Shown here: piece by piece, positions 12,001-15,000 of the stretch | How positions within the stretch are numbered: the stretch's first letter is position 1 | Layout: every line of letters starts with the position of its first letter | From: Escherichia coli | GTDB lineage: Bacteria > Pseudomonadota > Gammaproteobacteria > Enterobacterales > Enterobacteriaceae | DNA length: 64,000 bases | Strand: one strand, 5' to 3' | NCBI RefSeq assembly: GCF_041248615.1 | Contig: NZ_CP158426.1 | Program-made: the position numbers

Positions 12001-15000
12001 AAACCTGCATTGCTGGATATGGCCGGACTGCGGGCCGATATTCTTTCTCCTGTCAAAGAAACCGGCACATTGCTGGGCGTGGTAAGTTCACAAGCGGCGG
12101 AACTCTGCGGTCTGAAGGCGGGCACTCCGGTGGTCGTTGGAGGAGGCGACGTGCAACTTGGTTGCCTTGGGTTAGGCGTTGTCCGTCCGGCACAAACCGC
12201 TGTTCTTGGCGGCACATTCTGGCAGCAAGTTGTAAACTTAGCCGCGCCGGTGACAGACCCAGAAATGAACGTGCGCGTTAATCCTCATGTTATTCCTGGC
12301 ATGGTACAAGCTGAATCTATAAGCTTTTTTACCGGACTCACCATGCGCTGGTTCCGCGATGCTTTCTGTGCCGAAGAAAAACTGATTGCCGAACGTTTAG
12401 GCATCGACACCTATACGCTGCTTGAAGAGATGGCAAGTCGGGTGCCGCCTGGGTCGTGGGGCGTAATGCCGATATTCTCCGACAGAATGCGCTTTAAAAC
12501 CTGGTATCACGCTGCGCCTTCCTTTATTAATTTGTCTATTGATCCGGATAAATGTAACAAAGCGACATTGTTCCGTGCGCTGGAAGAAAATGCGGCGATA
12601 GTATCAGCGTGTAACTTGCAGCAAATCGCTGATTTCTCGAATATTCATCCTTCATCGTTAGTCTTTGCAGGCGGAGGTTCAAAAGGGAAATTATGGAGTC
12701 AAATTCTCGCTGATGTCTCGGGATTACCCGTCAATATTCCGGTGGTCAAAGAAGCCACTGCATTAGGATGTGCCATTGCAGCTGGCGTCGGTGCCGGAAT
12801 TTTTTCATCAATGGCAGAAACCGGAGAACGCCTGGTTCGCTGGGAACGGACGCACACACCAGACCCGGAAAAGCATGAACTTTATCAGGATTCACGCGAT
12901 AAGTGGCAGGCAGTTTATCAGGATCAGCTGGGGCTGGTTGATCACGGGCTGACGACGTCGTTATGGAAAGCGCCTGGGTTATAGTTTCATTGACAGCCAC
13001 ATCATGATGACCGTGGCTGTTAGTTTTTGAGTATTGGTATTCTCATTTCCCTTCTTTTAGAGCTGGTTTGTTAAATGCCAGCTTGCAGATTCATCGTTCC
13101 ATCGCCAGTAATATATTCAAGGGGAAATTGCTATTTTTCTTAAAATATTAAGCATAACCCTTATTTTATAGCGAATATTCCTAAAGGCACAAATGAATGA
13201 AAAAGAGTTTTAATAGAGTTCTTTTTTAGCAATTAATGCTATTCTTTGTTAAATATGATGATGGTAATTTTCTTATTAAAAGAAACATTTTTCTTATTAA
13301 GCAACAATAACTCATGGTTCATTTTTAAATAAAATAAGAACTATGCAATTTTTAATTTATCAATTCGAAAGTATTAGCAAATTAGCCAAATTGACACCTT
13401 CCCACCTCCAACCAACACTCAATACAGACCTCTGACAATTTAATAAGTTTCATTTTTAATGTCTGACGACTCATCTCTTTCGTGGCTGTATTGTTTGTAT
13501 ATGGAGCGTTTATATGAATAGAATCTATCGCGTGATATGGAATTGCACCCTACAGGCATTTCAGGTCTGCTCGGAATTAACTCGCAGGGTAGGTAAAACA
13601 TCGACGGTTAATTTGCGTAAATCCTCTGGGCTGACAACGAAATTCAGTAGATTGACGCTGGGTGTTTTGCTGGCACTAAGCGGTTCAGCGTCTGGTGCGA
13701 GTCTGGAAGTTGATAATGATCAGATTACCAATATTGATACTGATGTTGCTTATGATGCCTACCTGGTTGGCTGGTATGGCACTGGAGTGCTTAATATTTT
13801 GGCTGGCGGTAATGCCTCCTTAACCACTATTACTACCAGCGTCATTGGTGGTAATGAGAACTCGAAGGGCACCGTTAATGTTTTGGGTGGCACCTGGCGA
13901 TTGTATGATAGCGGAAATAATGCAAGGCCTTTAAATGTGGGCCAATCCGGAACGGGGATGCTGAATATTAAACAGAAGGGGCACGTTGATGGAGGCTATT
14001 TAAGATTAGGTACTCAAGCTGTAGGCGTCGGGATGGTTAATGTTGAGGGAGAGGACTCGGTTCTGACGACGGAGTTATTCGAAATAGGTAGCTATGGCAC
14101 AGGTTCATTAAATATTACGGATAAGGCTTATGTCACGAGTTCAATCGTCGCCATTTTAGGCTATCAGACGGGCAGTAATGGCCAGGTTGTCGTTGAAAAG
14201 GGCGGTGAGTGGCTAATAAAAAATAACGATTCCTCAATTGAATTTCAAATTGGTAATCAAGGAACTGGGGAAGCGACTATTCGCGAGGGTGGGCTGATTA
14301 CGGCTGAAAATACGATTATCGGTGGCAATGCCACCGGTATCGGAACCCTGAATGTGCAGGATCAAGACTCTGTCATCACGGTACGCAGACTCTATAATGG
14401 ATATTTCGGTAATGGCACAGTCAATATTTCCAATAATGGACTGATTAATAATAAAGAATATTCATTGGTGGGCGTTCAGGACGGTTCCCACGGTGTCGTC
14501 AACGTGACTGATAAAGGGCATTGGAATTTCCTCGGAACGGGCGAAGCTTTCCGCTATATCTATATCGGTGATGCTGGCGATGGTGAACTTAATGTCTCGA
14601 GTGAAGGCAAAGTAGATTCGGGAATTATCACTGCGGGGATGAAAGAAACAGGCACAGGCAACATTACTGTTAAGGATAAGAACTCCGTTATCACTAATCT
14701 CGGAACTAATCTTGGTTATGACGGCCACGGCGAAATGAATATCAGTAATGAGGGGCTTGTTGTCAGCAACGGAGGAAGTTCACTCGGTTATGGAGAAACC
14801 GGCGTCGGGAAGGTTAGCATCACCACGGGGGGGATGTGGGAGGTCAATAAGAATGTCTATACCACCATTGGTGTTGCGGGCGTCGGAAACCTCAATATTA
14901 GCGATGGCGGTAAGTTTGTATCGCAAAATATTACTTTTTTGGGCGATAAAGCAAGCGGTATCGGCACACTGAACCTGATGGATGCGACATCATCGTTCGA

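What the first reader, a model, noticed from the sequence alone, without database searches (positions are those of the whole stretch)
12985..13513. Long AT-rich leader upstream of the autotransporter with a short direct repeat
About 530 bp of strongly AT-rich non-coding sequence precede the autotransporter start, including TTTTCTTATTAA repeated twice (around 13268 and 13291). The composition is typical of H-NS-silenced promoters of horizontally acquired adhesin genes and may hold the regulatory logic for this cryptic adhesin.
Basis: partly seen in the sequence, partly recalled or inferred. Interest (0 to 1): 0.25.

Follow-up and report, generated by a model that had tools for sequence, protein, structure and literature searches.

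The report
AT-rich control region of cryptic adhesin
This is the already-described, H-NS-bound, AT-rich upstream region of an E. coli autotransporter adhesin gene (yneO/ydeK family); the 12-base repeat that drew attention is a minority-allele coincidence, while a conserved MarA binding site and a conserved core promoter are the real landmarks.

Summary
A 529-bp, 30.8% GC spacer (core 24.7%, the lowest in the window) separates lsrK from an intact 1806-aa ECSE_1600-family autotransporter, and TTTTCTTATTAA occurs at 13268 and 13289.

The exact repeat is not a conserved element. About 6% of E. coli genomes that carry the spacer have it, it is lost in orthologues from Pseudocitrobacter, and it lies in DNA evolving at roughly the neutral rate.

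The H-NS reading fits published data for the K-12 orthologue. That spacer is a listed "promoter island", is marked H-NS-bound in all the ChIP studies compiled, and is an H-NS and RpoD/RpoS SELEX target. I found no expression data showing silencing.

Four things were added here:
- The first ~45 bp are the lsrK terminator.
- Only 13129-13513 travels with the autotransporter gene, which sits in three different genomic contexts.
- A marbox at 13225-13239 (minus strand), bound by MarA in ETEC by ChIP-seq and in vitro, keeps its orientation and position in all three lineages: 270-276 bp before the ATG and 152-153 bp before an invariant TTGACA.
- The conserved core promoter candidate is TTGACA-17-AACACT, not the previously predicted CTGACA-17-TTTAAT.

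Verdict: an ordinary, largely known regulatory region of low interest. The one open point is what MarA does from that position.

The parts
12985..13513 (.). Whole lsrK-autotransporter spacer (529 bp, 30.8% GC)
12989..13028 (+). lsrK intrinsic-terminator-like hairpin (core ACAGCCAC/GUGGCUGU) followed by a T-run
   Evidence: Fold of -17.7 kcal/mol, z = -2.0. Invariant stem in 10 E. coli. In two strains a 3-bp deletion places the T-run directly after the stem. The simple consensus scan missed it because of the loop limit.
13129..13513 (+). Upstream region that travels with the autotransporter gene; homologous to the spacer of the Pseudocitrobacter-type orthologue in a paoA context
   Evidence: Alignment A5; L024 spacer 98.6% identical to L022
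13168..13185 (+). Conserved footprint ATAGnGAATATTCCTAAA, no assigned factor. It matches the RcsAB-box consensus (recalled from memory) at 11 of 14 positions, which is only a lead.
13225..13239 (-). Marbox (MarA/SoxS/Rob site): GCATTAATTGCTAAA on the minus strand
   Evidence: One of only 2 exact matches to GCAYNNWNNRYYAAA in 64 kb. The orthologous site GCACTAATTGCTAAA is a MarA ChIP-seq peak in ETEC H10407 and binds MarA in vitro at 0.3 uM. The window's 15-mer is identical to the grxA<>ybjC site, which bound equally well (PMC5684230 Table 1). Present in all 10 E. coli aligned and in both Pseudocitrobacter-type lineages at the same position and orientation.
13268..13279 (+). Direct repeat copy 1 (TTTTCTTATTAA), the polymorphic copy
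   Evidence: In other E. coli it reads TTTTCTTATTGA, TTTTCCTATTGA or TTTTCCTACTGA; in L022 it reads ATTTCCTGGTAT.
13289..13300 (+). Direct repeat copy 2 (TTTTCTTATTAA), invariant within E. coli
   Evidence: L022 has ATTGTCTTATTT at this position.
13391..13419 (+). Conserved promoter candidate TTGACA-17-AACACT, followed by the invariant block CAAWACAGAC
   Evidence: TTGACA and RACACTCAAWACAGAC are invariant in E. coli, the P. vendiensis type and the paoA-context lineage. Scores 9 of 12 in a loose promoter scan.
13432..13460 (+). CTGACA-17-TTTAAT, the promoter predicted for yneO under the RpoD holoenzyme SELEX peak in K-12
   Evidence: PMC3946193 Table 2; sequence read. Not conserved outside E. 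coli.
13469..13513 (+). Nearly invariant 45 nt before the ATG, including the Shine-Dalgarno GGAG at 13503-13506
   Evidence: Predicted RNA structure is weak, with no covariation.
13514..18934 (+). Intact 1806-aa type Va autotransporter of the ECSE_1600 family (yneO/ydeK/ydeU pseudogene in K-12)
   Evidence: Pfam ESPR, AC_1/Pertactin and Autotransporter beta-domain. NCBIfam NF011422, 4129 bits against a cut-off of 2335. RefSeq annotation.

Best explanation
The 529 bp are composite. The first ~45 bp end lsrK transcription (hairpin plus T-run). About 100 bp of E. coli-specific junction DNA follow. The remaining 385 bp (13129-13513) are the autotransporter gene's own upstream control region, which moved with the gene.

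That region is a very AT-rich tract dense in weak promoter-like hexamers on both strands, the published 'promoter island' type. By inference from the K-12 orthologue, H-NS coats it and keeps the gene quiet.

Productive transcription most likely starts in the last ~125 bp. The candidates are the cross-genus conserved TTGACA-17-AACACT (TSS near 13426, ~88-nt 5' UTR) and/or the E. coli-specific CTGACA-17-TTTAAT (TSS near 13467). Either would be followed by a strongly conserved translation-initiation region.

A marbox 152 bp upstream of the conserved -35 binds MarA, and probably SoxS and Rob. It links the gene to the mar/sox/rob stress regulon by an undetermined route.

The 12-bp exact direct repeat is a chance or allele-specific feature of low-complexity DNA and has no demonstrated role.

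Shown here or in the cited papers: the anatomy, the conservation pattern, and published H-NS, RpoD, RpoS and MarA binding to the orthologous DNA. Inferred: silencing, the transcription start sites, and any effect of MarA on transcription.
For: Locus identity and synteny. AT-richness. Published H-NS occupancy, promoter-island status and foreign-gene prediction for the K-12 spacer: PMC3661553 Table 1. Published H-NS SELEX site plus RpoD site with the predicted CTGACA-17-TTTAAT promoter: PMC3946193. Published RpoS holoenzyme SELEX peak in the same spacer: PMC5493296. Density of -10-like hexamers is 4.2-6.1 per 100 bp against 1.6 in the window, and loose promoter-like sites are 22.7 per kb against 8.0. 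Published MarA ChIP-seq peak and 0.3 uM in vitro binding: PMC5684230. Marbox conserved in 10 of 10 E. coli and in two other lineages, at 275/270/276 bp from the ATG and 152/152/153 bp from TTGACA. Chance of such a match, in the same strand and position, in shuffles of the P. vendiensis spacer is 0.0002. Divergence from K-12 is 0.8% in the proximal 123 bp and 10-14% in the distal part, against 4-12% at four-fold degenerate sites of the lsr genes. Repeat not conserved. Terminator.
Against: There are no binding or expression data for this strain; everything functional is transferred from K-12 or ETEC orthologues that are 94% identical over the spacer. I found no report of yneO/ydeK derepression in hns mutants. 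The high-affinity H-NS motif is not enriched and there is no helical AA/TT phasing. A stringent sigma-70 consensus scan finds no promoter at all in the spacer, and the conserved -10 matches the consensus at only 3 of 6 positions. The marbox is far from any candidate promoter and fits neither class I nor class II mar/sox/rob geometry, so MarA binding could be non-regulatory. The gene is a pseudogene in 9 of the 12 E. coli genomes whose annotation I inspected, so part of the region may simply be decaying.
Confidence: 0.75

Rival explanations
1. The two TTTTCTTATTAA copies, 21 bp (two helical turns) apart, are tandem operator half-sites for a transcription factor such as a response regulator. On this reading they are the key regulatory element of the adhesin gene.
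For: Exact 12 of 12 repeat; only 0.45% of local shuffles give an exact repeat this long within 50 bp. Copy 2 is invariant in 10 E. coli. Each copy contains a -10-like TATTAA.
Against: Copy 1 differs at 1-3 positions in 8 of 10 E. coli alleles. Only 240 genomes, of about 4224 that carry the spacer, have the exact 70-mer containing both copies. In the paoA-context orthologue the two positions read ATTTCCTGGTAT and ATTGTCTTATTT, identical at 7 of 12 positions (my count from the sequences), and the P. vendiensis type shows no such repeat. The surrounding DNA evolves at about the neutral rate. I know of no factor with this recognition sequence.
Confidence: 0.05
2. The spacer is mostly functionless, decaying DNA in front of a gene that is being lost from E. 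coli. On this reading H-NS and MarA binding are incidental consequences of AT-richness and a chance consensus match.
For: The autotransporter is a pseudogene in 9 of 12 inspected genomes. IS1 is inserted in the spacer in two strains. Distal divergence is about equal to the four-fold-site rate. There is no strong consensus promoter.
Against: The marbox, TTGACA, the RACACTCAAWACAGAC block and the 45 nt before the ATG are conserved across lineages whose proteins are 86-88% identical, while the DNA between them has diverged to background identity. All three lineages keep full-length 1806-aa genes. The proximal 132 bp are at least 99% identical to the window in 2909 of 4100 E. coli genomes.
Confidence: 0.15
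3. The region encodes an unannotated small gene or small RNA, for example the 30-codon ORF at 13343-13435 or an antisense transcript, rather than being purely regulatory DNA.
For: ORFs of 30-53 codons exist on both strands. Two of the three window-versus-K-12 differences inside the 30-codon ORF are synonymous (reading). Promoter-like sites occur on both strands.
Against: The ORF's ATG is absent in both Pseudocitrobacter-type lineages, and no Shine-Dalgarno sequence precedes it. There is no Rfam match at E <= 1 inside the spacer and no terminator-like site. Nothing is annotated there in MG1655 RefSeq.
Confidence: 0.04

Closest known systems
The ydeK(yneO)/lsrK 'promoter island' of E. coli K-12 (Shavkunov/Panyukov and Ozoline; PMC3661553)
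   Same: It is the orthologous spacer, with the same flanking genes and essentially the same length (529 bp against 530 bp). By my coordinate conversion the island, 1596197 plus 345 bp, maps to about window 13083-13427, which is the GC trough. It is AT-rich, dense in promoter-like sites, and reported as H-NS-bound in all compiled ChIP studies.
   Different: The window allele is only 94% identical over the spacer. It carries the exact 12-mer repeat and a GCAT instead of GCAC marbox, and it precedes an intact gene rather than a frameshifted one.
H-NS-bound AT-rich upstream regions of other E. coli autotransporter genes (the ycgV/ychF and yfaL/ypaB spacers are in the same promoter-island list)
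   Same: An AT-rich spacer before a cryptic type Va adhesin gene, with H-NS occupancy and a gene predicted to be foreign.
   Different: The sequences are unrelated: the proximal 132 bp occur once per genome. Silencing of this particular gene has not been shown.
mar/sox/rob regulon promoters (class I such as marRAB, class II such as micF; Martin et al. 1999, cited from memory)
   Same: An asymmetric marbox matching AYnGCACnnWnnRYYAAAYn, with MarA binding in vivo and in vitro. The marbox has the same 'backward' orientation relative to the downstream gene as at marRAB (orientation recalled from memory).
   Different: The marbox lies 152 bp upstream of the conserved -35, against roughly 20 bp or an overlap in the known classes. 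No MarA-dependent transcription has been reported for this gene.
agn43 (flu) regulatory region, with Dam/OxyR phase variation
   Same: A long upstream region controlling an AIDA-type autotransporter adhesin of E. coli.
   Different: There is no GATC site in the spacer (about 2 expected at the window's density) and no homopolymer of 7 or more, so nothing suggests methylation-based or slippage-based phase variation.

Membership tests
H-NS-silenced xenogeneic promoter region | AT content well above the genome average | tested here: met
   30.8% GC against 47.7% for the window, in the lowest 0.09% of all 529-bp stretches; the spacer contains the window's lowest 300-bp GC trough
H-NS-silenced xenogeneic promoter region | H-NS occupancy in vivo | not testable with these tools
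   Published for the K-12 orthologue only: marked 'A', bound according to all ChIP studies compiled in PMC3661553, and an H-NS SELEX site in PMC3946193
H-NS-silenced xenogeneic promoter region | Derepression of the downstream gene when hns is deleted | not testable with these tools
   No report found in two literature searches
H-NS-silenced xenogeneic promoter region | The downstream gene is horizontally acquired (patchy distribution, different contexts) | tested here: met
   The spacer is present in 4224 of 5426 E. coli genomes, and the gene is absent from B2 strains (PMC2608844). Orthologues lie next to lsrK, bluR or paoA. The K-12 gene is predicted foreign in one of three published prediction sets.
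H-NS-silenced xenogeneic promoter region | High-affinity H-NS nucleation motif or intrinsic curvature | tested here: not met
   One 9-of-10 match to TCGATAAATT against about 1 expected, and no 10-11 bp AA/TT periodicity. This is an accessory feature, not a strictly defining one.
Promoter island (Ozoline group) | At least 300 bp with an unusually high density of overlapping promoter-like sites on both strands | tested here: met
   Proxy counts only: -10-like hexamers enriched 3-4 fold and loose -35/-10 pairs about 3 fold, on both strands. PlatProm itself was not run. The K-12 orthologue is in the published list.
Promoter island (Ozoline group) | RNA polymerase binding with little productive transcription | not testable with these tools
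   RpoD and RpoS holoenzyme SELEX peaks are published for K-12; transcription output is not known
mar/sox/rob regulon promoter | Marbox matching the asymmetric consensus | tested here: met
   GCATTAATTGCTAAA at 13225-13239 (minus strand) is an exact match to GCAYNNWNNRYYAAA, one of 2 in 64 kb
mar/sox/rob regulon promoter | MarA, SoxS or Rob binding | not testable with these tools
   Published for the ETEC orthologue: ChIP-seq peak and binding at 0.3 uM in vitro. The window's exact 15-mer bound equally well at grxA<>ybjC.
mar/sox/rob regulon promoter | Class I or class II spacing and orientation relative to a -35/-10 | tested here: not met
   The marbox is 152 bp upstream of the conserved TTGACA. 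Inspection and a loose scan found no convincing conserved -35/-10 at canonical distance on either strand.
mar/sox/rob regulon promoter | Activator-dependent transcription | not testable with these tools
   No data found
Type Va (AIDA-I-type) autotransporter, ECSE_1600 family (the downstream gene) | ESPR signal peptide, passenger domain, autochaperone, C-terminal beta-barrel; family-level HMM above its cut-off | tested here: met
   Pfam PF13018, PF18883/PF03212 and PF03797; NF011422 at 4129 bits against a cut-off of 2335, full length
Rho-independent terminator (lsrK 3' end) | GC-rich hairpin followed by a U-run | tested here: met
   Hairpin of -17.7 kcal/mol followed by UUUUU and conserved. It was not flagged by the simple scan because of its loop-length limit.

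The most novel reading that the evidence does not exclude
The fixed-position marbox (152-153 bp upstream of the conserved -35 in three lineages, although the intervening DNA has diverged to background identity) could be a counter-silencing switch. MarA, SoxS or Rob, induced by antibiotics, salicylate or oxidative stress, would bind at the edge of the H-NS-coated tract and relieve silencing of the autotransporter adhesin, or fire an upstream promoter giving a ~200-nt leader. This would be a distance-dependent mode unlike class I or class II activation, and it would couple the antibiotic-stress regulon to adhesion or aggregation.
Probability: 0.15. Interest if true: 0.45.

Novelty: already known. 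Interest (0 to 1): 0.15.

Why it matters
It matters little beyond tidy annotation. The region is a textbook-type AT-rich, H-NS-associated upstream region, and its K-12 orthologue already appears in published H-NS, RNA polymerase and MarA binding maps.

There are two modest gains. The eye-catching repeat can be dismissed. And the comparative analysis picks out which few elements are actually under constraint in a gene most E. coli are losing: the marbox, TTGACA-17-RACACT, and the 45-nt translation-initiation region.

If the marbox proves functional, it would tie a cryptic adhesin to the mar/sox/rob stress response.

Tried and rejected
- Rfam scan of 12000-14500 at E <= 1: only a spurious snoRNA hit inside the coding region.
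- Stringent promoter and terminator consensus scan: nothing in the spacer.
- H-NS high-affinity motif and A-tract phasing: no enrichment.
- RcsAB-box resemblance (AGCGAATATTCCTA, 11 of 14 positions): conserved in one other lineage, but equally good matches occur elsewhere in the window, so it stays a lead only.
- Structured 5' UTR or riboswitch-like element: the predicted structure is weaker than in shuffles (z = +1.25) and shows no covariation.
- Small ORF at 13343-13435: its start codon is not conserved and it has no Shine-Dalgarno sequence.
- Dam/OxyR-type or slipped-strand phase variation: no GATC site and no long homopolymer.
- Sharing of the proximal region with paralogous autotransporters: it is single-copy per genome.
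- Looking for more lineages: one genome-contig scan and two protein searches found only E. coli/Shigella and Pseudocitrobacter-type sequences.
- By-eye checks of OmrA/B and RybB seed complementarity in the 5' UTR: 5-6 nt matches not conserved outside E. coli, so dropped. No tool was run for this.
- Literature on ydeK in evolution, antimicrobial blue-light and Cpx studies: not informative about the spacer. ydeK is 2.2-fold up in a cpxR mutant, which may be indirect.
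Full report
**What is there.** The window is E. coli. The spacer is 100% identical to strain CFSAN061763, and a match is present in 4224 of 5426 complete genomes. RefSeq annotation places it between lsrK (11392-12984) and an intact 1806-aa "ECSE_1600 family autotransporter" (13514-18934), with hipBA downstream. In K-12 the same gene is the frameshifted pseudogene yneO, formerly ydeK/ydeU.

The downstream protein has an ESPR signal peptide, an autochaperone/pertactin domain and an autotransporter beta-barrel. It matches NCBIfam NF011422 over its full length.

**The observation.** The spacer is 529 bp and 30.8% GC (24.7% for 13100-13399). It is in the lowest 0.09% of 529-bp stretches of the window and contains the window's lowest 300-bp GC trough. 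TTTTCTTATTAA occurs at 13268 and 13289 and nowhere else in the window.

Against shuffles that keep the spacer's own dinucleotide content, an exact direct repeat of at least 12 nt turns up in 4.2% of trials, or in 0.45% if it must lie within 50 bp.

**The repeat does not hold up as an element.**
- In an alignment of ten E. coli alleles only two carry the 12-of-12 repeat. Copy 1 is otherwise TTTTCTTATTGA, TTTTCCTATTGA or TTTTCCTACTGA, while copy 2 is invariant.
- Only 240 genomes have the exact 70-mer spanning both copies, about 6% of those carrying the spacer.
- In the orthologous spacer of a Pseudocitrobacter-type lineage the two positions read ATTTCCTGGTAT and ATTGTCTTATTT. The P. vendiensis type has no such repeat.
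- The repeat lies where window-versus-K-12/EDL933 divergence is about 5% (up to 10-14% just upstream). This is comparable to the 4-12% seen at four-fold degenerate sites of the neighbouring lsr genes.

I conclude the repeat is an incidental, allele-specific feature of low-complexity DNA.

**The H-NS interpretation.**
- Panyukov and Ozoline (PMC3661553, Table 1) list "1596197_345 ydeK(-)/lsrK(-)" among 78 promoter islands. The entry is associated with a gene predicted foreign by one of three methods. Its H-NS column reads "A", meaning bound according to all the ChIP studies compiled (Grainger, Kahramanoglou, Oshima).
- Using NC_000913.3 coordinates and my own conversion to the older numbering (offset of about 1976 bp, approximate), that island corresponds to about window 13083-13427. 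This is exactly the GC trough.
- Shimada et al. (PMC3946193) found an RpoD-holoenzyme genomic-SELEX site in the yneO-lsrK spacer. They predicted the promoter CTGACA-17-TTTAAT and flagged the spacer as containing an H-NS SELEX site.
- Their later paper reports an RpoS-holoenzyme peak in the same spacer (PMC5493296).

Simple counts here agree with the promoter-island label. -10-like hexamers are 3-4 times denser than in the window as a whole, and loose -35/-10 pairs about 3 times denser, on both strands.

Some evidence is missing. I found no report of derepression in an hns mutant. The spacer shows no enrichment of the TCGATAAATT motif and no helical phasing of AA/TT. H-NS binding is therefore well supported by transfer from K-12. 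Silencing remains an inference.

**Anatomy from comparison.** A scan of one genome per species, plus protein searches, found the gene only in E. coli/Shigella and in Pseudocitrobacter-type bacteria. The three lineages have 1806-aa proteins that are 86-88% identical to each other, and the gene sits in three contexts:
- after lsrK in E. coli;
- after bluF-bluR in P. vendiensis;
- divergent from paoABC in a third lineage.

Homology with the paoA-context spacer begins at about window 13129 and runs to the ATG. Homology with P. vendiensis begins at the marbox. The 529 bp are therefore composite:
- 12989-13028 is an lsrK terminator-like hairpin plus T-run (-17.7 kcal/mol; in two strains a 3-bp deletion puts the T-run directly after the stem).
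- About 100 bp of E. coli-specific junction DNA follow.
- The last 385 bp belong to the autotransporter gene.

**Conserved elements within the 385 bp.**
1. A marbox at 13225-13239 on the minus strand, GCATTAATTGCTAAA. This is one of only two exact matches to GCAYNNWNNRYYAAA in 64 kb.
2. TTGACA at 13391-13396, then 17 variable bases, then RACACT and CAAWACAGAC. These are invariant in all three lineages.
3. The 45 nt before the ATG, including GGAG at 13503-13506. They are nearly invariant although the first codons downstream are only about 80% identical by my estimate from the alignment.
4. Two distal blocks (13129-13153 and 13168-13185) shared with the paoA-context lineage only.

The Shimada-predicted CTGACA-17-TTTAAT (13432-13460) is conserved within E. 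coli but not outside it.

Within E. coli the proximal 132 bp are at least 99% identical to the window in 2909 of 4100 genomes. The whole spacer reaches that level in only 143 genomes.

**The marbox.** Sharma et al. (PMC5684230, Table 1) report a MarA ChIP-seq peak at ETEC1580 (yneO) in ETEC H10407. The site is gcactaattgctaaa, and it binds purified MarA at 0.3 uM, the highest-affinity class in that table. The window's variant 15-mer is identical to their grxA<>ybjC site, which is in the same affinity class.

The comparison adds that the site keeps its orientation and position in all three lineages. It lies 275, 270 and 276 bp before the ATG, and 152, 152 and 153 bp before the invariant TTGACA. 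P. vendiensis has a different sequence at this position, GCACAAAAAGCTAAA, which still matches the consensus exactly. In shuffles of that spacer, a consensus match on the same strand within 10 bp of the E. coli distance occurred in 0.02% of trials.

The 151 bp between marbox and TTGACA are at background identity in ungapped register between E. coli and P. vendiensis (29%). The spacing has therefore survived sequence turnover.

This geometry is neither class I nor class II of the mar/sox/rob promoters (classes recalled from Martin et al. 1999). I could not find a convincing conserved -35/-10 at canonical distance on either strand. No paper I could search reports MarA-dependent expression of this gene.

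**How it most likely works.**
- Shown: the anatomy, the conservation, and published binding of H-NS, RpoD and RpoS holoenzymes and MarA to orthologous DNA.
- Inferred: H-NS polymerises over the AT-rich tract (about 13090-13430) and keeps a weak proximal promoter quiet. Transcription starts 50-90 nt before the ATG. MarA, SoxS or Rob bind at the upstream edge and modulate this, by a route that remains unknown.

I put 0.75 on this overall picture. I put about 0.15 on the more interesting version, in which the marbox is a spacing-dependent counter-silencer or drives an upstream promoter.

**Rivals.**
- A functional tandem operator made of the 12-mer: 0.05, refuted by comparison.
- Largely functionless decaying DNA: 0.15. 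In its favour, the gene is a pseudogene in 9 of 12 inspected genomes and IS1 sits in the spacer in two strains. Against it are the cross-genus footprints.
- A hidden small gene or sRNA: 0.04.

**Novelty and score.** The region's nature and its H-NS, RNA polymerase and MarA binding are already in the literature for the orthologue, so the finding is "already known". The comparative footprinting, with its fixed marbox position and a conserved promoter different from the one predicted, is a small addition. Interest is 0.15.

Noticed in passing
window 13514-20706; L024 3501-11039; L015 4001-9821: The autotransporter and hipBA travel together. A Pseudocitrobacter-type contig has the order spacer, 1806-aa autotransporter, pmp3, hipB, hipA next to paoABC. 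Identity to the window is 86% for the autotransporter, 82% for HipB and 89% for HipA. P. vendiensis also has pmp3 after the autotransporter; E. coli lacks pmp3. The toxin-antitoxin pair may belong to the same acquired module.
   Followed up: partly
L011 3331-4307 and L012 4037-4800 (equivalent to the window spacer): IS1 is inserted inside the AT-rich spacer in two unrelated E. coli strains. In EC06 it is IS1A, about 330 bp into the spacer. In L37 it is IS1B, with deletion of the 5' end of the autotransporter gene.
   Followed up: no
window 13514-18934 and orthologues: The autotransporter is annotated as a pseudogene (frameshift, internal stop or truncation) in 9 of the 12 E. coli genomes inspected. 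It is intact in the window strain, TUM10828 and AR_0069.
   Followed up: partly
window 20906-23481: A SIR2-family gene and a transposase remnant lie directly after hipA. K-12 has a helix-turn-helix pseudogene fragment at that position instead. This could be a strain-variable defence-type islet.
   Followed up: no
window 13469-13513: The 45 nt before the start codon are more conserved across genera than the first codons of the gene, yet they show no stable or covarying RNA structure. The constraint is unexplained.
   Followed up: partly
window 13222-13227: The T-tract abutting the AAA end of the marbox varies from T5 to T7, with substitutions, among E. coli alleles. It is too short for classical slipped-strand switching.
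   Followed up: no
L014 and L016: E. coli-type copies of this locus appear in assemblies labelled 'Candidatus Nanosynbacter' (a metagenome-assembled genome) and 'Marinomonas sp. SBI8L'. At 90-95% protein identity to the window, these are probably binning errors or contamination.
   Followed up: no
window 50191-50490, 39728-40027, 29077-29376: These are the other deep GC troughs in the window (26-29% GC). The first lies just after the start of the gad gene, which begins at 49988. The K-12 gadB/pqqL and ydeO/safA spacers are also in the published promoter-island list.
   Followed up: no
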